Shown here: positions 10,477 to 52,667 of the stretch, one piece after another
Position numbering within the stretch: position 1 is the first letter of the stretch
How the letters are laid out: every line of letters begins with the position of its first letter
Source of the DNA: Eledone cirrhosa
Taxonomy: Eukaryota
Direction: 5' to 3'
NCBI GenBank assembly: GCA_964016885.1
Contig: OZ024763.1
Span: 30,132,001 to 30,196,000, forward strand
DNA length: 64,000 bases
Notes under the pieces: generated by a model
Told to the model about the DNA's origin: nothing
The model's input: the letters and a program-made list of their open reading frames with translations, nothing else
Databases searched by the model: none
Position numbers and translations under genes: made by a program

Positions 10477-13400
10477 TCATCATCATCATCATCATCAGGT
10501 TTAGCGTCCGTGTTCCACGCTTGCATGGGTTTGGACGAGGGTTTTCCCACTTGAGGCAAGAGTGGTTGTCTTGCTCGCATAGGACTGTCTGGCGGGTTTT
10601 CTACAGTTGGATGCCCTTCCTAACACCAACCACATTTACAGTGTGGGGCTGGGAGGTTTTTACCGTCTTGCCTACACGGCCACATTTACAGCGTGGACTG
10701 TGTGTTTTTTGTCGTGACACCTACACGATCTCATTTGTTTCGGCCTGGATGTTGAGGGACCAACATAACTGTACATTGAAAGGGGCGGTGTGGATGGGGT
10801 GGAGGTGGTGGGACGGGGGGTGTTTTGATAGAGATGCCTACTGACTGTAGTAGGTTTTTACTTTGTATTTAGGTAAGGCGGGTCTTCTCTATTACTGAGT
10901 ACCGCCAAAGGTCTCGGTCCAGTGACATTGTCTTGGAGAGGTGTAAGCGTGTGAGGTCGGAATTTATCAGCTCGTCCCATGTTTTTCTGGGTCTGCCTAC
11001 TCCGTGGCTACCGTCTATCTTTATTGCCCTGCACTTTGTTATACAGCTGTCGTCTTTCATGCGCATCACGTGACCGTACCAATGTAGCCTTCTCTCAAGT
11101 AAACAACATCTGATCCCTCTTATTTCTAATTTTTTCCTTAGTTCGTTTATGCTTTGCCGTTCACGTATATTACTATTGCACATCCAGCGGAGCATGCAAG
11201 CTTCGTTCCTCTCTAGTCTGCGTATATCCTCTGCACACAATGCCCAGGTCTCACTGCCATGCAGCATTGCTGTTCGTATGCAGGCATCGTATAACCTGCC
11301 TTTCATTTTTAGGGAGAACCCTCTAGCGGCTAATAGTGGTATAAGCTCTCTGAACTTTTTCCATCCAGTTCTGACTCTAGCTACTGTACTTTCAGAGCAC
11401 CCTCCCCCACTGCTGATTTTGTCACCCAGGTAACGGAAGCTGTCCACTATTTCTATAGAACCCTCTGCGCAGTTGAAGGAGCTAGTATTTTGTGGGCACT
11501 TGCTGCTACTTATTGCACCAGAGCACCGGCCACATGTAAAATCTATGTTCTTAGTTAGCTTACCTGTGATCCCACTACATCTTTTATGCAGCCATACTTT
11601 GCATTTGGGACATAAAATGGAGTTTCTACCTACGCCTTTCCTACACACTGAGCATGGCCATTTCCCAGATGGGACTGCCGCCATATTTTCTTTCCTACAA
11701 ACTAGAACTTTTGTCTTAGCCAGGTTAATTTTAAGGCCTTTTGATTCTAGGCCGTGCTTCCATGTTTGGAATTTCTTCTCTAGTTCGGTCATTGATTCAG
11801 CTATGAGCGTTAGATCATCTGCGTATAGGAGTTCCCATGGGCAGCCGGTCTTGAACTCCTCTGTTATAGCCTGAAGGGCAATAATAAATAGTAGGGGGCT
11901 AAGAACAGAGCCCTGATGGACACCAACTTTTACGCTAAACTCTTCACTATATTCGTTGTTAATTCTAACCTTACTGACTGTTTCTTTATACATGGCTTGT
12001 ATAGCTCTCACAAGCCATTCGTCAACACCTAGTTTTCTAAGAGACCACCAGATAATGGAACGGGGGACTCTGTCGAAGGCTTTCTCCAAGTCGACGAAAG
12101 CTAAGTATAGGGGTTTACTTTTAGCTAGGTACTTCTCCTGTAGTTGTCGTACAATGAAAAGAGTGTCTGTGGTACTTTTGCCTGACACAAACCCGAACTG
12201 CATTTCATCTAGATCAATTCTCTCTCTGATTAGTTGCGCTATTACTTTTTCCGTGACCTTCATGACCTGGTCGATTAATTTAATGCCTCTATAGTTACTC
12301 CTATCTAGGGCATCTCCTTTTCCCTTATAGCAGTTAACGATGATGCTGCTACGCCAGTCCTTCGGAACAACCCCATTCTGTACGACTTGGTTAACTATCC
12401 GGGTGACCATGGTGTGTCCCACCGAACCGGATGCCTTCAGCATCTCAGCAACTATTTCCGAAGGACCAGCCGCCTTACCCGTCTTCATATCTTTGATTGC
12501 CTTGCTTATTGTACTACCCTGGACTAACACTGCTGGTCCCTCTATTGGGTCGATGTGGGGGAGACTGTCTTTCTCCCATTTGTTCTCCTCATTTAGAAGC
12601 CTTTCGTAGTGACACTTCCAAGCTACCTTCTTATCAGCGTCGGTGATGGCAAGTATGCCATCATCGTTAAGCACACACTTCTCCCCGACAATATCACGGT
12701 TTTCCTTGACACATTGCCTGGCAATCCTGAACACCTCACGTTTTTGGTCCTCACGTTGTAGAACATGCTTGAACTTTCTTTCCTCTGCTTCCCTTCTTGC
12801 GAAGTACACTTGTCTCCTAGCTTCCCTCCTGGCTACCTGATAGTCTTCTCTACTTCCCCCATCCCGCCATGCTTTCCAAGCCTGCTTTTTGGCCTTAATT
12901 GACTCCTCCACCTTACTGTTCCACCACCATGTTACTCTCCTCCTACCTACAGGCCTGCTCCAGCCACAGACTTCGTCTGCCGCCGTCAGCAGGTTTGCTC
13001 TCAGGAATTCCCACTGTTCCTCTATATTATACGACTCTAATTGCTCTTCCTTACTGTCGAAAGCGTCAAGTAATATGCTTTGAAATTTATTTCTGGCTAT
13101 GGGGTCCTTTAGCTTCCATATTTTTCTCCTGAGGATAGTCCTCTTCCGCTGTCTAGTACGTCTCGTCCTGACTATGAGGTCGCTAATTATCAGTCTATGT
13201 TGGGAGGTGAATTCTTCATGGGGGAGGGATTTAGTGTTAACAACAGACACTCTGTCACGTCTTCTGGTAAGGATATAATCTACCTGGCTTGTGTGTTCCC
13301 CCGATCTATAGGTGATCAAGTGATTGTCTCGTTTTTTGAAGTTAGTGTTACAGATAGTTAAGTTATTTGCGTCGCAGAATTCCAGGATTCTGGAGCCTTC

Positions 13401-14114
13401 CTCATTTCTAGTACCGAACCCATAGCCTCCATGGATTCCGTCATAGCCATCACAATGCTGTCCAACGTGACCATTTAGGTCGCCTGCAATAACTATATAG
13501 TCACTGTCGCTTATTTGGGAGGTAGCGAGCATCAGTGTCTCGTAGAATCTGTCTTTTATAGCACCGGGCAGTCCGGATTGTGGTGCGTACGCAGATATTA
13601 CTGTCACCGTAGTTTTATTGAGGACAAGTCTTATTTTAATTATTCTGTCGTTCACTCTATTTACGTCTATTATCTTATCTGCCCACTTTTCTGCTACCAT
13701 GATTCCTACCCCACCCAACCCATTGTCATTTCCCACCCAGAAAAGCTTATAGCATCGTTCTTTACCCACGATGAATCTAGCCGACCCTCCCCTCGACCTG
13801 GTCTCTTGAATACAACAAACATCGACCTCCTTACGTTCAAGCATTTCTACAACCTCGTTAGAGCGACCCTTTAAGGTGCCTACATTCATGGTACCAACTC
13901 TGAAGTTTTGGATTGCGTTTGGAGGGTGGGAGGGGTGGGGCGCGGGGGGGGATGGGGTTATGTTAGCCATCCTGGGCCGAAACAAGGCGGAGTGCTTGCA
14001 TTCTCGTCCACGAGGTGAATTTGTCTTTATCTTTGGCATTGTCGCTGAGCGTCCACATTTTTCTCTCTTCAACTCTCCAGAATTCCGTAGTCCATCCATC
14101 ATATCGAAAAGCAA
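10477..14114 (-). mobile_element. RTE-clade non-LTR retrotransposon (ORF, 3'UTR, (GAT)n tail); 5' boundary not resolved
   Basis: Single EN-RT ORF, ~370 bp 3'UTR, plus-strand (ATC)n tail at 10477-10497. Confidence 0.92.
10869..14114 (-). CDS. RTE LINE polyprotein: APE endonuclease, reverse transcriptase, PHD-like zinc finger
   Basis: Uninterrupted 1081 codons (first ATG at 14102). EN motifs GTMNVGTL, CIQET, SAYAPQ, GDLNGHVG, VDYIL, SQHR; RT motifs YRGIKL, QFGF, FVDLEKAFD, GVHQGSVLSP, YADD, FRYLG; RTE-type C-terminus GRPRKTW. Confidence 0.95.
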   Translation of the reverse strand: MLFDMMDGLRNSGELKREKCGRSATMPKIKTNSPRGRECKHSALFRPRMANITPSPPAPHPSHPPNAIQNFRVGTMNVGTLKGRSNEVVEMLERKEVDVCCIQETRSRGGSARFIVGKERCYKLFWVGNDNGLGGVGIMVAEKWADKIIDVNRVNDRIIKIRLVLNKTTVTVISAYAPQSGLPGAIKDRFYETLMLATSQISDSDYIVIAGDLNGHVGQHCDGYDGIHGGYGFGTRNEEGSRILEFCDANNLTICNTNFKKRDNHLITYRSGEHTSQVDYILTRRRDRVSVVNTKSLPHEEFTSQHRLIISDLIVRTRRTRQRKRTILRRKIWKLKDPIARNKFQSILLDAFDSKEEQLESYNIEEQWEFLRANLLTAADEVCGWSRPVGRRRVTWWWNSKVEESIKAKKQAWKAWRDGGSREDYQVARREARRQVYFARREAEERKFKHVLQREDQKREVFRIARQCVKENRDIVGEKCVLNDDGILAITDADKKVAWKCHYERLLNEENKWEKDSLPHIDPIEGPAVLVQGSTISKAIKDMKTGKAAGPSEIVAEMLKASGSVGHTMVTRIVNQVVQNGVVPKDWRSSIIVNCYKGKGDALDRSNYRGIKLIDQVMKVTEKVIAQLIRERIDLDEMQFGFVSGKSTTDTLFIVRQLQEKYLAKSKPLYLAFVDLEKAFDRVPRSIIWWSLRKLGVDEWLVRAIQAMYKETVSKVRINNEYSEEFSVKVGVHQGSVLSPLLFIIALQAITEEFKTGCPWELLYADDLTLIAESMTELEKKFQTWKHGLESKGLKINLAKTKVLVCRKENMAAVPSGKWPCSVCRKGVGRNSILCPKCKVWLHKRCSGITGKLTKNIDFTCGRCSGAISSSKCPQNTSSFNCAEGSIEIVDSFRYLGDKISSGGGCSESTVARVRTGWKKFRELIPLLAARGFSLKMKGRLYDACIRTAMLHGSETWALCAEDIRRLERNEACMLRWMCNSNIRERQSINELRKKLEIRGIRCCLLERRLHWYGHVMRMKDDSCITKCRAIKIDGSHGVGRPRKTWDELINSDLTRLHLSKTMSLDRDLWRYSVIEKTRLT

Positions 14115-15130
14115 CCAGTTAGGCGATAGTATGGGCCTCTGACTTATGATTGGTCCACGTAATAATGGTGGTGCGTGGGGGAGGGTGGGAGGGATGATGT
14201 GTTGTTAGCGAGAATGTAAGGTTTAAGATAAGATCGCCGTATTTTGGGCATAATTTAACAATAAATGAAAATACAAGATTTGTTTTGTTTAAGAAAATAC
14301 GATAGAGAAAATGCGGTGATAGGGAAAATATGATTTTTAGAGAAAAAATATGATATAGAATGATAGAATGGTGAAAATATGATATAGTGTGAAATTAGGA
14401 CATAGAACAGTCATTGAAATGAATGGATTCGAATGGAGAGAAGAATCGAGAAAAATATTTGGACGTTACTTTATACCGCAAGAAGAGCCATCCCAGAAAT
14501 AGCGAGTTGGCGATTGTGATTAATTTTGGTAGGGATTTATCTTATATGTATAGAGAGGGATGGGGGGGGGCAGGAACCAGCATGATGTATGGGTAGGGGG
14601 TAGAAGATGGGATGGAGCAGAGGTTAAGAGTTTAAATAGGTACTAGAAGTGTGTGTGTATATATATATATATGTGTGTGTGTGAGAGAGAGAATGAGAGT
14701 GAGTGTGTATGTGTGTGTGTGTATGGGTATGTGTGTGTGTATATGTGTATGTTTGTGGATATATATATTTATATATGTGTGTGTGTGTGTATATATATGT
14801 ATATATATATACACACACACAACCCACCAACCAACCACCAAAGCCACTAACACAAACACGACACACTCAATTATCTAAAGAAATTTTACCACTATTGGTT
14901 AGCATTAAAAATACTAGAACTTTCTACAGCCAAATCGAAAATTAACTACCATTGGTTTGTCTGATTAACAGACTAAAAGACCGATTGGTCGATTAGTTTA
15001 ATGTCGAATCGATTGATTCCTGACATCAATACGCTGACCAAACATCTAACCAAACATATTGATTGGAAACCAGTCTGGGAAGACATTATTTTGTTAGCTA
15101 AAATACGACCAATAATATTGTGTTATTGCA

Positions 15131-30140: not shown

Positions 30141-30703
30141 TCACTCCCCTGAGGAGTTGGCAATGGAATAGTCCTGACTCCTTGGACGCTTACTGGGTGG
30201 TGGCTGGTAGCAATAGTTGCTGCTGATGATGTTGTTGTTGTTGTTATTGCTGCTGCTGTTGTTGTTGTTATTGCTGTTGGTGTTGACGTTGGCGGAGAGC
30301 GTGGCGCCGAGGCGGAAGGGCACTGGGGCGAAGTTCATGCTGTTCCAGGCAGCCTTCAGTGTCGACGAGGACGAAGAGAAGTCGCCTGCCCCTCCCACCA
30401 CCCCTCCCCCCGCGCCTGTCGTTGCCGCGGCGGCAGCCGCCGCCGCGGCAGCCATCGCCGAGCCGCAGTAGTCCCCCATTAGCGGCCCGCCGCACCCTCC
30501 TCCTCCTCCTCCTCCCATCCCGCCCCCCATCCCGCTGTTGCTGCTTCCGCTGACGAACGACGACGACAGAGGCGACGGCGACGATGACAGCATGCTGCCC
30601 CCGTTGAAGAGGCCTGGACCACCTCCTCCACCACCGAAGCCGCTCAGGAGGAAACTGCCCCGACCCCGGCCGCGACCATGACCTTGTAAACCTCTCATTC
30701 CAC
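30141..30703 (-). CDS. Probable terminal coding exon of a host gene; Gly/Ser/Ala/Asn-rich low-complexity C-terminus
   Basis: GC/CpG-rich island in AT-rich DNA; acceptor TTTCTCTCTATTTTCAG|GT at 30704/30703; open to TGA at 30141; contains GRGRGRG and PPPSKRPR. Gene not recognised. Confidence 0.7.
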
Positions 30704-30861
30704 CTGAAAATAGAGAGAAACGGAGACAAACATTATAATTTTATTGCAACAGTGGGATAACATAGTAGAAATGTATACTACAGTAAAGTAAGGAGTGCGG
30801 GACTGTTTACAGAATATATTTTTTTAACCTGTTTGTAAAATAAGTTGGATTACTTTGAATA

Positions 30862-31051
30862 AATAATTGTTTCTACTTTAGGCACAAGGCCAGCAATTAC
30901 CCAGTGCATTACTGGTACTTTATTTTATCGACCCCGTAAGGATGAACGGCAAAGTCAACCTCGGCGGGATTTGAACTCAGATCGTAAAGGGACGTAACTA
31001 TGCTGGAAAGCATGGCGTCCGACTCTCTACCGATACTGCCAATCCACCGCC
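30862..31051 (-). mobile_element. SINE family A, full length
   Basis: Complete head GGCGGTGGATTGGCAG through GTAGAAACAATTA. Confidence 0.9.
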
Positions 31052-31576
31052 ATACTTTATTATAGTATAGATTCATTACTTTGAATAAATAATGAATCTA
31101 TACTATAATAAAGAAAGTTGTGCGGGACTGTGTCCAGAATATATTTTTTTAACCTGTTTGTAAAATAAGTTGGATTACTTTGAATAAATAATGAATGAAT
31201 ATTACATAATTTATCTACTAAATGTCGTTATTCTTGATTAAATATGAATAATATTGTTGCTTATTTAAAGATTCACTTCTTTAAAATTTTCAAATGTCAA
31301 CAGTCCCAGTTAGCGATCGCTTAAATAAACATTCATATATTTCCTTCACTAATTTCTCCTAATGCAGTTTATATATAATATCATCTTTTTTTAATGTATC
31401 CTAGATTATGTTACTGATTACATAAGACAGTGTAACAACGTCTTCATTTAATTTCTGTGTATATTGTCAATTACGATTTTATTTGATGTATCATATCTAC
31501 ATGTATATATACTTGCGTATAATATCAATATACACACTACACATGCCACCAGAAGGGTGGTTTTTCTGCTAGTATA

Positions 31577-34187: not shown

Positions 34188-37100
34188 GTTTTGTAATAAA
34201 ATATAATTGTTTCTACTTTTGGCACAAAGCGAGCAATTACCCAGAGTATTACTGGTACTTTATTTTATCTACCCCGTGAGGATGAAAGGCAAAGTTAACC
34301 TCAGCGGGATTTGAACACAGACCGTAAAGGGACGTAACTCTATGCTACAAAGCATGGCGTCCGACTCTCTACCGATACTGCCAATGTTTTGTAATAAAAT
34401 ATAATTGTTTCTACTTTTGGCTCAAGGCCAGCAATTACCCAGTGTATTACTGGTACTTTATTTTATCTACCCCGTGAGGATGAAAGGCAAAGTTAACCAC
34501 GGCGGGATTTGAACTCAGACCGTAAAGGGACGTAACTCTATGCTACAAAGCATGGCGTCCGACTCTCTACCGATACTGCCAATGTTTTGTAATAAAATAT
34601 AATTGTTTCTACTTTTGGCTCAAGGCCAGCAATTACCCAGTGTATTACTGGTACTTTATTTTATCTACCCCGTGAGGATGAAAGGCAAAGTTAACCACGG
34701 CGGGATTTGAACTCAGACCGTAAAGGGACGTAACTCTATGCTACAAAGCATGGCGTCCGACTCTCTACCGATACTGCCAATGTTTTGTAATAAAATATAA
34801 TTGTTTCTACGTTAGGCACAAGGCCAGCAATTACCCAGTGTATTACTGGTACTTTATTTTATCTACCCCGTGAGGATGAAAGGCAAAGTTAACCACGGCG
34901 GGATTTGAACTCAGACCGTAAAGGGACGTAACTCTATGCTACAAAGCATGGCGTCCGACTCTCTACCGATACTGCCAATGTTTTGTAATAAAATATAATT
35001 GTTTCTACTTTTGGCTCAAGGCCAGCAATTACCCAGTGTATTACTGGTACTTTATTTTATCTACCCCGTGAGGATGAAAGGCAAAGTTAACCACGGCGGG
35101 ATTTGAACTCAGACCGTAAAGGGACGTAACTCTATGCTACAAAGCATGGCGTCCGACTCTCTACCGATACTGCCAATGTTTTGTAATAAAATATAATTGT
35201 TTCTACTTTTGGCTCAAGGCCAGCAATTACCCAGTGTATTACTGGTACTTTATTTTACCGACCCCCGTAAGGATGAAAGGCAAAGTTAACCTCGACGGGA
35301 TTTGAACTCAGACCGTAAAGGGACGTAACTCTATGCTACAAAGCATGGCGTCCGACTCTCTACCGATACTGCCAATGTTTTGTAATAAAATATAATTGTT
35401 TCTACTTTTGGCTCAAGGCCAGCAATTACCCAGTGTATTACTGGTACTTTATTTTATCTACCCCGTGAGGATGAAAGGCAAAGTTAACCTCGGCGGGATT
35501 TGAACTCAGACCGTAAAGGGACGTAACTCTATGCTACAAAGCATGGCGTCCGACTCTCTACCGATACTGCCAATGTTTTGTAATAAAATATAATTGTTTC
35601 TACGTTAGGCACAAGGCCAGCAATTACCCAGTGTATTACTGGTACTTTATTTTATCTACCCCGTGAGGATGAAAGGCAAAGTTAACCACGGCGGGATTTG
35701 AACTCAGACCGTAAAGGGACGTAACTCTATGCTACAAAGCATGGCGTCCGACTCTCTACCGATACTGCCAATGTTTTGTAATAAAATATAATTGTTTCTA
35801 CGTTAGGCACAAGGCCAGCAATTACCCAGTGTATTACTGGTACTTTATTTTATCTACCCCGTGAGGATGAAAGGCAAAGTTAACCACGGCGGGATTTGAA
35901 CTCAGACCGTAAAGGGACGTAACTCTATGCTACAAAGCATGGCGTCCGACTCTCTACCGATACTGCCAATGTTTTGTAATAAAATATAATTGTTTCTACG
36001 TTAGGCACAAGGCCAGCAATTACCCAGTGTATTACTGGTACTTTATTTTATCTACCCCGTGAGGATGAAAGGCAAAGTTAACCTCGGCGGGATTTGAACT
36101 CAGACCGTAAAGGGACGTAACTCTATGCTACAAAGCATGGCGTCCGACTCTCTACCGATACTGCCAATGTTTTGTAATAAAATATAATTGTTTCTACTTT
36201 TGGCACAAGGCCAGCAATTACCCAGTGTATTACTGGTACTTTATTTTATCTACCCCGTGAGGATGAAAGGCAAAGTTAACCACGGCGGGATTTGAACTCA
36301 GACCGTAAAGGGACGTAACTCTATGCTACAAAGCATGGCGTCCGACTCTTTACCGATACTGCCAATGTTTTGTAATAAAATATAATTGTTTCTACGTTAG
36401 GCACAAGGCCAGCAATTACCCAGTGTATTACTGGTACTTTATTTTATCTACCCCGTGAGGATGAAAGGCAAAGTTAACCTCGGCGGGATTTGAACTCAGA
36501 CCGTAAAGGGACGTAACTCTATGCTACAAAGCATGGCGTCCGACTCTCTACCGATACTGCCAATGTTTTGTAATAAAATATAATTGTTTCTACGTTAGGC
36601 ACAAGGCCAGCAATTACCCAGTGTATTACTGGTACTTTATTTTATCTACCCCGTGAGGATGAAAGGCAAAGTTAACCTCGGCGGAATTTGAACTCAGACC
36701 GTAAAGGGACGTAACTCTATGCTACAAAGCATGGCGTCCGACTCTCTACCGATACTGCCAATGTTTTGTAATAAAATATAATTGTTTCTACTTTTGGCTC
36801 AAGGCCAGCAATTACCCAGTGTATTACTGGTACTTTATTTTATCTACCCCGTGAGGATGAAAGGCAAAGTTAACCACGGCGGGATTTGAACTCAGACCGT
36901 AAAGGGACGTAACTCTATGCTACAAAGCATGGCGTCCGACTCTCTACCGATACTGCCAATGTTTTGTAATAAAATATAATTGTTTCTACGTTAGGCACAA
37001 GGCCAGCAATTCACCAGTGTATTACTGGTACTTTATTTTATCTACCCCGTGAGGATGAAAGGCAAAGTTAACCACGGCGGGATTTGAACTCAGACCGTAA

Positions 37101-40100
37101 AGGGACGTAACTCTATGCTACAAAGCATGGCGTCCGACTCTCTACCGATACTGCCAATGTTTTGTAATAAAATATAATTGTTTCTACGTTAGGCACAAGG
37201 CCAGCAATTACCCAGTGTATTACTGGTACTTTATTTTATCTACCCCCGTGAGGATGAAAGGCAAAGTTAACCACGGCGGGATTTGAACTCAGACCGTAAA
37301 GGGACGTAACTCTATGCTACAAAGCATGGCGTCCGACTCTCTACCGATACTGCCAATGTTTTGTAATAAAATATAATTGTTTCTACGTTAGGCACAAGGC
37401 CAGCAATTACCCAGTGTATTACTGGTACTTTATTTTATCTACCCCGTGAGGATGAAAGGCAAAGTTAACCACGGCGGGATTTGAACTCAGACCGTAAAGG
37501 GACGTAACTCTATGCTACAAAGCATGGCGTCCGACTCTCTACCGATACTGCCAATGTTTTGTAATAAAATATAATTGTTTCTACGTTAGGCACAAGGCCA
37601 GCAATTCACCAGTGTATTACTGGTACTTTATTTTATCTACCCCGTGAGGATGAAAGGCAAAGTTAACCTCGGCGGGATTTGAACTCAGACCGTAAAGGGA
37701 CGTAACTCTATGCTACAAAGCATGGCGTCCGACTCTCTACCGATACTGCCAATGTTTTGTAATAAAATATAATTGTTTCTACTTTTGGCTCAAGGCCAGC
37801 AATTACCCAGTGTATTACTGGTACTTTATTTTATCTACCCCGTGAGGATGAAAGGCAAAGTTAACCACGGCGGGATTTGAACTCAGACCGTAAAGGGACG
37901 TAACTCTATGCTACAAAGCATGGCGTCCGACTCTCTACCGATACTGCCAATGTTTTGTAATAAAATATAATTGTTTCTACTTTTGGCTCAAGGCCAGCAA
38001 TTACCCAGTGTATTACTGGTACTTTATTTTATCTACCCCGTGAGGATGAAAGGCAAAGTTAACCACGGCGGGATTTGAACTCAGACCGTAAAGGGACGTA
38101 ACTCTATGCTACAAAGCATGGCGTCCGACTCTTTACCGATACTGCCAATGTTTTGTAATAAAATATAATTGTTTCTACGTTAGGCACAAGGCCAGCAATT
38201 ACCCAGTGTATTACTGGTACTTTATTTTATCTACCCCGTGAGGATGAAAGGCAAAGTTAACCTCGGCGGGATTTGAACTCAGACCGTAAAGGGACGTAAC
38301 TCTATGCTACAAAGCATGGCGTCCGACTCTCTACCGATACTGCCAATGTTTTGTAATAAAATATAATTGTTTCTACGTTAGGCACAAGGCCAGCAATTAC
38401 CCAGTGTATTACTGGTACTTTATTTTATCTACCCCGTGAGGATGAAAGGCAAAGTTAACCTCGGCGGGATTTGAACTCAGACCGTAAAGGGACGTAACTC
38501 TATGCTACAAAGCATGGCGTCCGACTCTCTACCGATACTGCCAATGTTTTGTAATAAAATATAATTGTTTCTACTTTTGGCTCAAGGCCAGCAATTACCC
38601 AGTGTATTACTGGTACTTTATTTTATCTACCCCGTGAGGATGAAAGGCAAAGTTAACCACGGCGGGATTTGAACTCAGACCGTAAAGGGACGTAACTCTA
38701 TGCTACAAAGCATGGCGTCCGACTCTCTACCGATACTGCCAATGTTTTGTAATAAAATATAATTGTTTCTACGTTAGGCACAAGGCCAGCAATTCACCAG
38801 TGTATTACTGGTACTTTATTTTATCTACCCCGTGAGGATGAAAGGCAAAGTTAACCACGGCGGGATTTGAACTCAGACCGTAAAGGGACGTAACTCTATG
38901 CTACAAAGCATGGCGTCCGACTCTCTACCGATACTGCCAATGTTTTGTAATAAAATATAATTGTTTCTACGTTAGGCACAAGGCCAGCAATTACCCAGTG
39001 TATTACTGGTACTTTATTTTATCTACCCCCGTGAGGATGAAAGGCAAAGTTAACCACGGCGGGATTTGAACTCAGACCGTAAAGGGACGTAACTCTATGC
39101 TACAAAGCATGGCGTCCGACTCTCTACCGATACTGCCAATGTTTTGTAATAAAATATAATTGTTTCTACGTTAGGCACAAGGCCAGCAATTACCCAGTGT
39201 ATTACTGGTACTTTATTTTATCTACCCCGTGAGGATGAAAGGCAAAGTTAACCACGGCGGGATTTGAACTCAGACCGTAAAGGGACGTAACTCTATGCTA
39301 CAAAGCATGGCGTCCGACTCTCTACCGATACTGCCAATGTTTTGTAATAAAATATAATTGTTTCTACGTTAGGCACAAGGCCAGCAATTCACCAGTGTAT
39401 TACTGGTACTTTATTTTATCTACCCCGTGAGGATGAAAGGCAAAGTTAACCTCGGCGGGATTTGAACTCAGACCGTAAAGGGACGTAACTCTATGCTACA
39501 AAGCATGGCGTCCGACTCTCTACCGATACTGCCAATGTTTTGTAATAAAATATAATTGTTTCTACTTTTGGCTCAAGGCCAGCAATTACCCAGTGTATTA
39601 CTGGTACTTTATTTTATCTACCCCGTGAGGATGAAAGGCAAAGTTAACCACGGCGGGATTTGAACTCAGACCATAAAGGGACGTAACTCTATGCTACAAA
39701 GCATGGCGTCCGACTCTCTACCGATACTGCCAATGTTTTGTAATAAAATATAATTGTTTCTACTTTTGGCACAAGGCCAGCAATTACCCAGTGTATTACT
39801 GGTACTTTATTTTATCTACCCCGTGAGGATGAAAGGCAAAGTTAACCTCGGCGGGATTTGAACTCAGACCGTAAAGGGACGTAACTCTATGCTACAAAGC
39901 ATGGCGTCCGACTCTCTACCGATACTGCCAATGTTTTGTAATAAAATATAATTGTTTCTACTTTTGGCTCAAGGCCAGCAATTACCCAGTGTATTACTGG
40001 TACTTTATTTTATCTACCCCGTGAGGATGAAAGGCAAAGTTAACCACGGCGGGATTTGAACTCAGACCATAAAGGGACGTAACTCTATGCTACAAAGCAT

Positions 40101-40226
40101 GGCGTCCGACTCTCTACCGATACTGCCAATGTTTTGTAATAAAATATAATTGTTTCTACTTTTGGCACAAGGCCAGCAATTACCCAGTGTATTACTGGTA
40201 CTTTATTTTATCGACCCCGTAAGGAT
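34188..40226 (-). repeat. Tandem array of 30 full and 1 partial 198-bp SINE family A units
   Basis: ATAATTGTTTCTAC recurs at 34203, 34401, 34599, 34797 ... 40146; each unit is a SINE body plus linker GTTTTGTAATAAAAT; few variant sites. Confidence 0.97.
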
Positions 40227-40247
40227 AAAATATAATGATATTAATAT

Positions 40248-40570
40248 ATAATTGTTTCTTATTTAGGCACAAGTCCAGCAATTTTGGGGAAGGTGGGGAA
40301 AGTCGATTAAATCGATCCCCAGTGTATTACTGGTACTTTATTTCATCGGCCCTGTAAGGAGGAAAGGCAAAGCTTTCAATGCGGTAGAGCATCAAACAAC
40401 ATGCTTTACAGCATAGAGTTACGGCCCTTCACGTTCTGAGTTAACTTCGCCTTTGATCCTTACGGGGTCGATAAAATAAAGTACCAGTAATGTACTGGGG
40501 TTGATTTAATCGACTCCCCCCCCCCCAAAAAAAAAAATTGCTGGCCTTGTGCCTATATAGGAAACCATTA
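40248..40570. mobile_element. Two diverged SINE A-related fragments in opposite orientation
   Basis: Longer subfamily with an extra GTCGATTAAATC insert; minus copy ~40248-40370, plus copy ~40385-40570. Confidence 0.7.
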
Positions 40571-40841
40571 TTATTATCACTTTTATTGTTGTTGTTGTTG
40601 TTGTTATTATTGTTGTTGTTGTTGCTGCTGCTGCTGTATTTTAACACCATACATCACAGTTTCTGTGGCAATATTTATGACAGTATGGGTGTGTGTGTAT
40701 ATATGTGTGTGTGTGTGTGTGGGCCTGTATGTGTATGTGAGCACACACATACATATATATGTGTGTGTGTGCCTGTGTATGTGTGTGTATGTATGTACAC
40801 ATATATACGTCTGTGTGTCTGAGCCAGTGTTTGTATGTGTG

Positions 40842-42637: not shown

Positions 42638-43866
42638 GGTTGGTGTACGGAAGGACATCCAACTGTAGAAACAAAAATCCCCAACAAAACAGAAGATGTG
42701 GGCATGATGTGGTCCCCTGACAACCTGTCAAACCCCCAACAAAACAGATGTGGGCATGATATGGTCCCCTGACAACCTGTCTAACTCCAGAGTTTGACAA
42801 CCAGTCAAACCCCCAACAAAACAGATGTGGGTATGATGTGGTCCCCTGACAACCTGTCTAACTCCAGTGTTTGACAACCTGTCTAACTTCAGAGTTTGAC
42901 AACCTGTCTAACTTCAGAGTTTGACAACCTGTCTAACTCCAGTGTTTGACAACCTGTCTAACTCCAGAGTTTGACAACCAGTCAAACCCCCAACAAAACA
43001 GATGTGGGTATGATATGGTCCCCTGACAACCTGTCTAACTCCAGAGTTTGACAACCAGTCAAACCCCCAACAAAACAGATGTGGGTATGATGTGGTCCCC
43101 TGACAACCTGTCTAACTCCAGTGTTTGACAACCTGTCTAACTTCAGAGTTTGACAACCTGTCTAACTTCAGAGTTTGACAACCTGTCTAACTCCAGTGTT
43201 TGACAACCTGTCTAACTCCAGAGTTTGACAACCAGTCAAACCCCCAACAAAACAGATGTGGGCATGATATGGTCCCCTGACAACCTGTCTAACTCCAGAG
43301 TTTGACAACCACTCAAACCCCCAACAAAACAGATGTGGGTATGATGTGGTCCCCTGACAACCTGTCTAACTCCAGTGTTTGACAACCTGTCTAACTTCAG
43401 AGTTTGACAACCTGTCTAACTTCAGAGTTTGACAACCAGTCTAACTCCAGAGTTTGACAACCAGTCAAACCCCCAACAAAACAGATGTGGGCATGATGTG
43501 GTCCCCTGACAACCTGTCTAACTCCAGAGTTTGACAACCAGTCAAACTTCAGAGTTTGACAATCTGTCTAACTTCAGTGTTTGACAACCTGTCTAACTCC
43601 AGTGTTTGACAACCAGTCAAACTTCAGAGTTTGACAACCAGTCTAACTTCAGTGTTTGACAACCTGTCTAAATCCAGTGTTTGACAACCTGTCTAACTTC
43701 AGAGTTTGACAACCTGTCTAACTTCAGTGTTTGACAACCTGTCTAACTCCAGTGTTTGACAACCTGTCTAACTTCAGAGTTTGACAACCTGTCAAACCCC
43801 CAACAAAACAGATGTGGGCATGATGTGGTCCCCTGATAACCCGTCTATGGAAAATAGACGTTAAAC
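42638..43866 (+). repeat. Two-module minisatellite (25-bp and ~52-bp units) inside an RTE-tail-like element
   Basis: TGACAACCTGTCTAACTCCAGAGTT and CAAACCCCCAACAAAACAGATGTGGG... units; flanked by GAAGGACATCCAACTGTAGAAAC and ATGGAAAATAGACGTTAAA. Confidence 0.85.
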
Positions 43867-47259: not shown

Positions 47260-47977
47260 TTTACCATTTACATTACTCTATATTTACTATTGTATTTTCA
47301 CAGTAAAGGCTTTACCTCACATAATATCTCACATAACATTTACATTACTCTATATATACTATTGTATTTACATAGTAAAGGCTTTACCTCACATAATATC
47401 TCATTACATTTACATTACTCTATATATACTATTGTATTTTCACAGTAAAGGCTTTACCTCACATAATATCTCACATAACATTTACATTACTCTATATATA
47501 CTATTGTATTTTCACAGTAAAGGCTTTACCTCACATAATATCTCATTACATTTACATTACTCTATATATACTATTGTATTTTCATGGTAAAGGCTTTACC
47601 TCACATAATATCTCACATAACATTTACATTACTCTATATATACTATTGTATTTTCACAGTAAAGGCTTTACCTCACATAATATCTCACATAACATTTACA
47701 TTACTCTATATATACTATTGTATTTTCATGGTAAAGGCTTTACCTCACATAATATCTCACATAACATTTACATTACTCTATATATACTATTGTATTTTCA
47801 CAGTAAAGGCTTTATCTCATATAATTATCTCACATAATATCAAATCTATGAGATTTGGATGTTATTTATTTTGAGAACAATACCTTAATATAAGTATGAG
47901 TAGCAGGATACGGCCGGTTTGAACACAAAGAGGTTAGAGAATTCTGGCCCGATACGGCTGGTTTAAGTGCTAAAGGG
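47260..47977 (+). repeat. ~70-bp tandem repeat (~8 copies) inside a copy of the piggyBac-like MITE
   Basis: Unit contains AAAGGCTTTACCTCACATAATATC as in 21592-21766; ends with TGCTAAAGGG. Confidence 0.8.
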
Positions 47978-51060: not shown

Positions 51061-52667
51061 TTATTTCTTTATTAGCCACAGGGGCACAAAAGAAGGGGAC
51101 AAATACAAAGGGGGAAGTTTACATACAATAAAAACGTGTAAAATGTTATCACAAATGCAATTTAAAAAATTAGTCGATTTTCCCCAATAGGGGGAGACAG
51201 TTTATATGGGTGACACATACCCCCGAAAAAAAATGTGCAACCCTCATCTCCAGGAGTACGAAGAGTTTGTACTCCCTTCCTCTCCTCCTCCTTTTCCTCA
51301 ACCTACAGGCTGATATAGATAGATAGATAGATATATTTCTTTATTAGCCACAGGGGCACAAAAGAAGGGGACAAATACAAAGGGGGAAGTTTACATACAA
51401 TAAAAACGTGTAAAATGTTATCACAGATGGAATTTAAAAGTTAGTCGATTTTCCCCAATAGAGGGAGACAGTTTATATGGGTAACACAGACCCCCGAAAA
51501 AAAATGTGCAACCCTCATCTCCAGGAGTACGAAGAGTTTGTACTCCCTTCCTCTCCTCCTCCTTTTCCTCAACCTACAGGCTGATATAGATAGATAGATA
51601 GATAGATAGGTAGATAGATAAATAGGTAGATATATTTCTTTATTTGTCACAAGGGCACACAAGAAAAGGGGACCATACAAAGACATATGGCGGGGATTTC
51701 ACATACATCATCATCATCATCATCATCATCATTTCATTTTACGTCCGCTTTTCCCTGCTTGCAAGGGTGGGACGGGAACTGATGCTGGCTTGATTTCTAC
51801 AGCTGGATGCCCTTCCTAACACCAACCTCATTTACAGTGAGTGCTGGGTGCTTTTATGCCGTGGCACCTCCACGACCACTTTGCAGTGGAATGATATGGA
51901 CCCCAGTCTCTATCACCTCATTTCTACAGCTGAGTAAACTGGAGCAATGTGAAATAAAGTGTCTTGCTCAAGGAAACAACACATCACCCAGGCTGAGAAT
52001 TGAACTCACAACCTTTCGATTGCAAGGCCAATGCTCTGACCACTAAGCCATGTGCCTCCACAGTCGCGTAGAAAAAGTTTTAACATGAAAATATAACAAT
52101 CGAAATCCCCAATAGGGGGGAGGCATTACAAATGGGTTGTTTTATACCCCGTAGATAGAACAACCCTCAACTCCAGGAGCATGTTGTGCAAGTGCTCCTT
52201 TCTTCCTTTCGCTCTCTTCTTCAACCTACAGGTTTATATACAAAGAAGGCCCAATCACTTGGACCATTCTCGGATAGATAGATAGATAGATAGATAGATA
52301 TATTTCTTTATTTACCATAAAGGCATAAAAAGAAGGGACAAATACAAAGGGGGAGTTTACATACAATCGAGTAAAAAGGGTATAAAATGAAAATAATCGA
52401 AAATAACCTCAAAAGGGAGGGGACGTGATGGGGGTTGCACACACCCCCGAAAAATTGTGCAATCCTTTGCCCGGGGAGCACATGGAGAAGGTGCTCCCCT
52501 CTCCTTCACTTCTTTACCTACAGGATGGTATACAGAGAAGGCCCATTTACACGAGCCATTCTCGCCACTATCACCCACCTTTCATAAAACTGCCTGTGGC
52601 CAAGCACCTCTCTCTCCATTCTTATCCTTCTTCCGAAGTGATATCGGAAGAAGTAAACCAGACTACG

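What the first reader, a model, noticed from the sequence alone, without database searches (positions are those of the whole stretch)
34188..40226. SINE converted into a 30-copy tandem array of apparently complete Pol III units
Seen: each 198-bp unit keeps A box TGGCAGTATCGG and B box GAGTTCAAATC on minus, and its only T4 run is in the linker (ATATTTTATT) just after the SINE 3' end. The first ~9 nt of the dispersed head are replaced by linker. Units differ at only a handful of sites and share variants (CTACAAAGC, TCTACCCCGTGAGG) not seen in dispersed copies here. Inference: a young SINE-derived satellite organised like a 5S/tRNA gene array. It may be a small-RNA or SINE source locus, a TFIIIC insulator cluster, or a nucleosome-phasing array.
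Basis: partly seen in the sequence, partly recalled or inferred. Interest (0 to 1): 0.75.

Follow-up and report, generated by a model that had tools for sequence, protein, structure and literature searches.

The report
Whole-SINE tandem array grown in place
One copy of a very common short jumping element, together with the short scar it left on landing, is repeated 30 times head to tail, likely by unequal recombination; the same genome holds many shorter arrays of this build, the layout is already described in clams, and nothing found here points to a job for it.

Summary
The array is real: 30 full 198-199-bp units plus a 100-bp partial unit at 34188-40230, SINE on the minus strand, A-box string in 30 of 30 units. 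The 'linker' is the target-site duplication (TSD): all 31 SINE 3' ends carry the same 20 nt, the last copy running into unique flank. The build is TSD-(SINE-TSD)n, published for the clam Scapharca (4-15 units, PMC11481361). A 9-unit block is duplicated and variants are recombined, which points to unequal exchange. The process is common here: 7,275 tail-to-head SINE junctions genome-wide, and 23 of 44 other multi-SINE loci hold 2-10 near-identical periods, each with its own linker. The T4 looks incidental (in the linker of 3 of these 23). One 'private' variant occurs at 726 other sites and no daughter copy was found. Pol III use is untested. Three look-ups of earlier scan notes showed no array of this kind. 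Verdict: the longest example seen of a known kind, likely neutral.

The parts
34188..40230 (-). Tandem array TSD-(SINE-TSD)n: 30 full units of 198-199 bp and one 100-bp partial unit
34188..34207 (-). Last copy of the 20-nt tail/TSD (15-20 nt is TSD; the first few bases overlap the SINE's ATT tail), followed by unique flank below 34188
   Evidence: 30 SINE ends continue into a head, 1 into flank, all after the same 20 nt
34188..34385 (-). Trailing unit u1, one of the two most diverged units (8 differences from the majority)
35575..35772 (-). Example majority-type unit u8: A box about 35770-35759, B box about 35703-35695, T4 at 35588-35585
35178..35376 (-). Unit u6 with a patch of six differences in about 40 bp, partly the dispersed-SINE states: likely gene conversion from another copy
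   Evidence: conversion is inferred
36169..39734 (-). Duplicated 9-unit block: u11-u19 (36169-37951) and u20-u28 (37952-39734), 3 differences in about 1.78 kb
   Evidence: 0 of 2000 order permutations reach it
40151..40224 (-). Leading 5'-truncated SINE (about 74 nt of 3' end) with the dispersed-SINE states at the core sites; with the TSD it forms a direct repeat of about 95 bp of the next unit's end
40225..40236 (-). 12-nt upstream TSD copy of the truncated SINE, identical to the first 12 nt of the linker
40237..40375 (-). 3' part and AT-rich tail of a longer, more diverged SINE variant into whose tail the two younger copies were inserted
   Evidence: order of insertion inferred
40382..40580 (+). 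Inverted, diverged SINE copy, head to head with the previous one (flank, not part of the array)

Best explanation
The array is 30 near-identical copies of one slightly 5'-truncated tRNA-type SINE, each followed by the same target-site duplication, and it likely grew in place by repeated unequal recombination as a likely functionless passenger. Shown: the linker equals the 3' flank of the last unit; a truncated SINE with its own 12-nt TSD and an older SINE are stacked at the 5' end; a 9-unit block is duplicated; variants are recombined between units; many shorter arrays of the same build exist, each with its own linker. Inferred steps: (1) this SINE family lands in the ATT-rich tails of earlier copies, so head-to-tail stacks are common; (2) here a 74-nt 3' fragment and a near-full copy landed at the same site, giving a direct repeat of about 95 bp (or the bare 15-20-bp TSD pair) at exactly 198-bp spacing; (3) mispairing and unequal exchange at that repeat made the first tandem units, and later exchanges, one offset by 9 units, plus gene conversion, took it to 30; (4) A and B boxes are intact because the array is young and the unit is the whole SINE, and the T4 is a chance part of the AT-rich target. 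Some Pol III occupancy or transcription may occur as a by-product.
For: All 31 SINE ends share the 20-nt linker and the last runs into unique DNA. TSDs of 10 nt or more flank 106 of 207 near-full copies from fetched loci, median 16 nt (the set includes members of other arrays). 7,275 tail-to-head junctions, 0 for the reversed control pattern. 24 of 45 multi-SINE loci, window included, have 2 or more consecutive periods at 94% identity or better (30, 10, 6, 5, 5, 4, seven of 3, eleven of 2), with different linkers and truncation points; the other 21 are mixed stacks or short of that threshold. 9-unit duplication with 3 differences, null mean 16.2, 0 of 2000 permutations; all four allele combinations at two pairs of common sites. 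T4 in the linker in 3 of 23 other arrays and within 24 nt of the 3' end in 27 of 207 copies, both 13%; four sister arrays, among them the 10-period one, carry a T4 inside the SINE body in every unit. 0 of 12 chromosome-placed arrays of 3 or more periods lie on C1-C4, 54% of the bases (post hoc), as expected if exchange per base is higher on small chromosomes (recalled). Same structure and proposed origin in Scapharca (PMC11481361).
Against: The window's array is three times longer than any other seen and is one of only 4 of 24 with a T4 in the linker, so a link between a complete Pol III unit and large size is not excluded (n = 1). The searches score only 40 candidates each and one missed this very array, so the size ranking is incomplete. 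No empty or two-unit allele was seen. The first step (TSD pair versus the 95-bp repeat, exchange versus rolling circle) cannot be read from one haplotype. In human cells four T's are reported as an efficient terminator (10.1101/2025.10.17.683076, passages), so the units may be transcribable.
Confidence: 0.8

Rival explanations
1. The array was laid down in one burst: a SINE+TSD circle excised by TSD-TSD recombination was amplified by rolling-circle copying and re-entered the locus, or reverse transcriptase re-primed repeatedly at one target; exchange only reshuffled it later.
For: Identical truncation point and linker in all 30 units; low divergence, mean 2.5 differences from the majority. Both routes give TSD-(SINE-TSD)n.
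Against: Three common polymorphisms at 37-47% frequency in mosaic order, only 3 of 29 neighbours identical, four-gamete patterns and a 9-unit duplication need several rounds of exchange; the graded series of 2-10 periods elsewhere fits stepwise growth. Serial independent insertions give unequal linkers and mixed variants (L052, L053, L066), unlike this array.
Confidence: 0.1
2. The array is a working Pol III gene cluster: it makes ~190-nt monomers or read-through multimers, acts as a SINE source, or serves as a TFIIIC boundary, and copy number is selected.
For: A box in 30 of 30 and B-box pattern in 29 of 30 units, one T4 per unit just past the 3' end; largest array seen; transposons are reported as largely unmethylated and often expressed in Octopus bimaculoides (PMC9476566, passages); snaR shows that Alu-derived Pol III genes can form tandem arrays (PMC3337139, passages).
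Against: No daughters: the best dispersed matches are 90-95%, 92% at most among 207 copies; 0 of 11 dispersed carriers of the core variant have the array's head variant or linker; the one outside match to head plus 6 nt of linker is a different haplotype, 91.9%. No spacer: T4 ends 12 nt before the next A box. Sister arrays amplify without T4 or with an internal T4. The monomer folds no better than shuffles, z 0.34; no tRNA or Rfam match in the array. Satellites were the more methylated repeats in PMC9476566.
Confidence: 0.07
3. The array, or its 9-unit duplication, is an assembly artefact.
For: No read spanning the array was seen; the two 9-unit blocks are nearly identical.
Against: 15 distinct unit sequences with shared, patterned variants; the blocks differ at 3 sites; a 54-nt contig of run X1 matches 40106-40159 over the linker-head junction without a difference at depth 74, against 2.9-10.1 for four longer X1 contigs listed (it has 25 and 29 letters on the two sides, below the tool's 31-letter bridging rule, depth is no copy number, and X1 may be the assembly's own sample).
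Confidence: 0.03

Closest known systems
TSD1-(SINE-TSD1)n tandem arrays of HCD tRNA-SINEs in the blood clam Scapharca broughtonii (PMC11481361; section 15 read whole, Discussion passages)
   Same: Mollusc tRNA-SINE; highly similar elements with one shared truncation point separated by the same TSD; proposed origin by unequal recombination between TSDs; found with mixed stacks and palindromes.
   Different: 4-15 units there, 30 here; truncated in the 3' tail there, by about 9 nt at the 5' end here, so both boxes and the whole 3' end are kept; here a nested truncated copy and a 9-unit duplication record the steps.
SINE-derived satellites (sSat) of squamates (PMC10702118; part 1 of 5 and passages)
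   Same: Tandem arrays from abundant tRNA-SINEs, a few to hundreds of units, many independent loci, unequal recombination proposed, longer loci nearer chromosome ends (this one is 0.52 Mb from its contig end).
   Different: sSat units are always shorter than the SINE; here the unit is nearly the whole SINE plus TSD. Only 2 of 21 placed arrays here lie within 10% of a contig end.
Multimers of full-length Dip/B1 SINEs in jerboa (as cited in PMC10702118, passage)
   Same: Head-to-tail full-length SINEs at high frequency; matches the 7,275 junctions and mixed stacks here.
   Different: Up to eight units; the passage describes multimers of Dip and/or B1, not one homogenised unit.
snaR arrays of great apes (PMC3337139; passages)
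   Same: SINE-derived Pol III unit with A and B boxes in tandem arrays made by DNA-level duplication.
   Different: snaR duplicons are kilobases long with flanks and give a known RNA; here there is no spacer and no expression evidence.
PcH-sat of the limpet Patella (PMC11121367; abstract only) and the amphibian Pol III tandem repeats PolIII/TAN, OAX, Rana/polIII, Hy/polIII (as summarised in PMC10702118)
   Same: 170-360-bp tandem repeats with SINE or tRNA similarity.
   Different: Those are high-copy satellite families (up to 10% of the genome), with partial or unproven SINE origin; this is a single 6-kb locus with its parent SINE dispersed all around.

Membership tests
TSD-(SINE-TSD)n array (PMC11481361) | More than 3 same-family, highly similar SINEs head to tail | tested here: met
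   30 units, mean 3.6 differences per 198 bp
TSD-(SINE-TSD)n array (PMC11481361) | Units separated by the same TSD, which also bounds the array | tested here: met
   Same 20 nt after all 31 SINE ends, last into flank; 12 nt of it upstream of the leading fragment
TSD-(SINE-TSD)n array (PMC11481361) | Same truncation point in all units (3' in the clam) | tested here: met
   Shared truncation, but at the 5' end, about 9 nt
tRNA-derived SINE | A and B boxes in the 5' head | tested here: met
   30 of 30 and 29 of 30; box patterns are recalled; the A-box string is also the family's commonest, 126 of 207, and departs from tRNA at one normally invariant A (recalled)
tRNA-derived SINE | Dispersed in high copy number with variable TSDs, 5' truncations and simple-repeat tail | tested here: met
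   9 copies in the window, 726 outside hits for one variant, TSD of 10 nt or more in 106 of 207, ATT-type tails
tRNA-derived SINE | 3' end shared with a partner LINE | tested here: inconclusive
   No match to the one LINE in the window; other LINEs not tested
Named SINE family (octopus OK/OR1/OR2, MetaSINE) | Match to the published consensus or central domain | not testable with these tools
   Consensus sequences are in figures or supplements that could not be read; the likeness to octopus SINEs is recalled only
sSat (PMC10702118) | Unit is a portion of the SINE, always shorter than it | tested here: not met
   Unit covers about 183 of about 192 SINE bases plus TSD; it works like an sSat but is not filed as one
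5S/tRNA-type Pol III gene array | Gene separated from the next by a non-transcribed spacer (recalled) | tested here: not met
   T4 ends 12 nt upstream of the next A box; the family's 5' end lies about 11 nt upstream of it
5S/tRNA-type Pol III gene array | Encodes a recognisable structured RNA | tested here: not met
   No ARAGORN or Rfam hit in the array; fold z 0.34
5S/tRNA-type Pol III gene array | Pol III occupancy and discrete RNA | not testable with these tools
   Needs ChIP and small-RNA data
SINE master (source) locus | Dispersed daughters with the locus's diagnostic haplotype | tested here: not met
   None found; exact-pattern searches miss mutated daughters

The most novel reading that the evidence does not exclude
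Because the landing site happened to supply a T4, this array is a spacer-less stack of 30 complete Pol III units that is actively transcribed (about 190-nt monomers and read-through multimers), a new-born SINE-RNA gene cluster or TFIIIC boundary whose dose changes with copy number, and its Pol III activity helped it outgrow its 2-10-unit sisters.
Probability: 0.08. Interest if true: 0.6.

Novelty: new member of a known kind. Interest (0 to 1): 0.27.

Why it matters
As a single locus it is ordinary. Its value is as the far end of a birth series inside one genome: single SINE, mixed stack, 2-10 homogeneous units, 30 units with a higher-order duplication, each locus tagged by its own TSD. That series allows a direct test of how satellites start and whether growth follows recombination rate (0 of 12 arrays of 3 or more periods on the four giant chromosomes, post hoc). 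It extends the clam TSD-(SINE-TSD)n class to what is likely an octopus and doubles its reported length. If the units were transcribed it would show how a Pol III gene cluster can arise from one SINE insertion.

Tried and rejected
Expression: no RNA holder listed. Reads on the left flank and first unit were swamped by dispersed copies and no piece spanned the stretch; RAD runs X7 and X8 gave almost only partly fitting reads; nothing on other individuals' alleles. Internal deletion in the unit: first suspected from the neighbouring longer SINE, rejected because the dispersed young copies have the same short form. Partner LINE: the LINE at 10869-14204 shares no 3' end with the SINE. Host gene: a candidate terminal exon at 30141-30702 (minus) has no Pfam, Atlas or longer-protein hit and no upstream exon was recognised by eye among filtered minus-strand ORFs of the window and 50 kb beyond (those ORF lists were not scanned against Pfam), so an intronic position is unproven. 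Subtelomeric rule: not seen for the short arrays (2 of 21), and the contig end shows no telomere repeat. 'Longest in the genome': not claimed, since one search missed this array; its 40 candidates were not fetched. Family name: not resolved. Lee et al. 2015 and Albertin et al. 2015 are not held. Paper searches listed no description of such arrays in octopus; subscription journals are not covered.
Full report
Observation. Tandem Repeats Finder gives a 198-bp period, 30.5 copies and 98% matches at 34188-40230. Splitting at a fixed anchor gives 30 full units (27 of 198 bp, 3 of 199 bp) and a 100-bp partial unit; 15 of the 31 pieces are distinct, units differ from the majority at 2.5 sites on average and from each other at 3.6. 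The only T4 on that strand of the majority unit is in the linker. ARAGORN and Rfam find nothing in the array. Nine dispersed copies of the same SINE, 88-94% identical, lie in the window. The window is G000:C24:30.13-30.20 Mb of a 30.68-Mb contig in a 3.0-Gb genome. The organism is likely an octopus: that rests on my recall of octopus repeats and on unchecked notes of this scan, not on a test.

The linker is a target-site duplication. All 31 SINE 3' ends are followed by the same 20 nt (ATTATATTTTATTACAAAAC on the minus strand); 30 continue into a SINE head that lacks about 9 nt, and the last continues into unique DNA. Because the SINE tail begins with ATT repeats, the TSD proper is 15-20 nt. 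At the other end the partial unit is a 5'-truncated SINE (40224-40151) with the dispersed states at the core sites; the 12 nt upstream of it equal the first 12 nt of the linker. Further upstream lies the tail of a longer, more diverged SINE. So three SINEs are stacked at one AT-rich site, and the array is TSD-(SINE-TSD)n. TSDs of 10 nt or more flank 106 of 207 near-full copies from fetched loci (median 16 nt; this set includes members of other arrays).

Growth by exchange. Three common polymorphisms (11-14 of 30 units for the minor state) are in mosaic order, only 3 of 29 neighbours are identical, and all four allele combinations occur at two pairs of sites. Units 11-19 and 20-28 differ at 3 sites in all; 0 of 2000 random orders reach this (null mean 16.2). 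Unit 6 has a patch of six differences, partly dispersed-type, likely a conversion tract (inferred). I infer that the 3' fragment plus TSD (about 95 bp), or the bare TSD pair, gave the first misalignment at 198-bp offset; the order of the two insertions and the first step cannot be read from one haplotype.

The process is common in this genome. A pattern for SINE tail followed within 3-17 nt by a SINE head has 7,275 exact matches, the reversed control 0. Of 45 multi-SINE loci examined (the window, one, 20 picked, 19, four from pattern listings; not a random sample), 24 have two or more consecutive periods at 94% identity or better: 30, 10, 6, 5, 5, 4, seven of 3 and eleven of 2. Each has its own linker, truncation point and variants; in several the linker matches the flank after the run (for example L057, L064, L076, L094). 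The rest are mostly mixed stacks with unequal linkers (for example L052, L053, L066). Periods run from 179 to 208 bp, so 198 is SINE length plus TSD. The window's array is the longest seen, but each search scores 40 candidates and one search missed this array, so longer ones may exist. Post hoc, 0 of 12 chromosome-placed arrays with 3 or more periods lie on C1-C4 (54% of bases; binomial P 9e-5, 0.003 after scaling by SINE density on C1; 0 of 11 against 11 of 28 within the 39 BLAST-picked loci, Fisher P 0.017; two unplaced contigs and one locus picked from a C1-only listing were left out of the placed list). This fits higher exchange per base on small chromosomes (recalled). Only 2 of 21 placed arrays lie within 10% of a contig end; this array is one, at 0.52 Mb, but the contig end has no telomere repeat.

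The Pol III reading. In favour: boxes intact, one T4 per unit just past the 3' end, four T's reported as an efficient terminator in human cells, with frequent read-through (10.1101/2025.10.17.683076, passages), and little methylation of transposons in O. bimaculoides (PMC9476566, passages). Against: T4 lies in the linker of only 3 of the 23 sister arrays and within 24 nt of the end in 27 of 207 copies, both 13%; four sister arrays, including the 10-period one, have a T4 inside the SINE body in every unit. The T4 ends 12 nt before the next A box, where the family's 5' end lies, so there is no spacer. The monomer folds no better than shuffles (z 0.34). Source locus: the head variant occurs at 726 other sites (756 less 30 in the array); the core variant at 11 other sites, none with the array's head variant or linker (all 11 examined); head plus 6 nt of linker matches 28 array units and one outside site with another haplotype, 91.9% identical; the closest of 207 copies is 92% identical. 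No daughter was found, though exact patterns miss mutated ones. Occupancy and RNA remain untested.

Assembly. One 54-nt contig of run X1 matches the linker-head junction exactly at depth 74, against 2.9-10.1 for four longer contigs listed; it falls short of the tool's bridging rule and X1 may be the assembly's sample, so this is weak support. The patterned variation argues against an artefact.

Surroundings. A candidate terminal exon at 30702-30141 (minus, AG acceptor after a pyrimidine tract) lies 3.5 kb from the array on the same strand; it is unidentified, so the array may be intronic but this is not shown.

Comparison. PMC11481361 (section 15 whole, other passages) describes TSD1-(SINE-TSD1)n arrays of 4-15 units in the clam Scapharca broughtonii and proposes unequal recombination between TSDs, citing Lee et al. 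2015 (not held). PMC10702118 (part 1 of 5 and passages) describes SINE-derived satellites whose units are always shorter than the SINE, and cites jerboa multimers of full-length SINEs. PMC3337139 (passages) gives snaR as the functional precedent; PMC11121367 (abstract) a limpet satellite with Nin-SINE similarity. PMC4758252, PMC4824008, PMC9659126 and PMC3531059 were seen as passages only; consensus sequences in figures or supplements could not be read, which leaves the family name open. Six paper searches listed no account of these arrays in octopus.

Verdict. Real; a new, long member of a known kind; likely neutral and grown in place (0.8). Burst amplification 0.1, working Pol III cluster 0.07, artefact 0.03. 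Interest 0.27.

Noticed in passing
window 10869-14204 (-): Open frame of 1,111 aa with endonuclease, reverse transcriptase and PHD-finger domains and a TGA-repeat tail near 10500: an apparently intact non-LTR retrotransposon, RTE-like by recall; its 3' end does not match the SINE.
   Followed up: partly
window 30141-30702 (-): GC-rich, low-complexity candidate terminal exon (Gly/Ala/Ser/Asn runs, RG repeats) with a clear acceptor; no Pfam, Atlas or longer-protein hit.
   Followed up: partly
window about 30750-31200 (-): A SINE at 30863-31052 sits between two copies of a roughly 90-bp stretch and next to a short extra piece: a local duplication around the insertion.
   Followed up: no
window 40237-40580: Two diverged SINEs head to head form an imperfect inverted repeat right beside the array's 5' end.
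   Followed up: partly
L076:3332-5337 (G000:C28, 84.47 Mb): Second-longest array seen, 10.2 copies of 196 bp, with a T4 inside every unit.
   Followed up: yes
L064 (G000:C1575): Array mixing full 202-bp and 5'-truncated 107-115-bp units that share one linker, with a repeated two-unit pattern.
   Followed up: partly
L021:1790-2300 (G000:C26, 18.096 Mb): Degenerate TTAGGG-type repeat, far from the contig ends, directly beside a 4-unit SINE array.
   Followed up: no
genome-wide: Arrays of 3 or more periods are absent from the four giant chromosomes in this sample (0 of 12); post hoc and from a BLAST-ranked sample.
   Followed up: partly
window 42718-43847 and 47265-47837: Unrelated minisatellites: a 25/52/77/254-bp higher-order repeat and a 72-bp repeat of 8 copies.
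   Followed up: no
window 51989-52052 (-): Weak Rfam tRNA hit (29.6 bits) that looks like the head of a second SINE family.
   Followed up: no
L098:6630-7270: Mixed stack of four or five SINE pieces about 50 kb from the array, one with the same tail variant as half of the array units.
   Followed up: no
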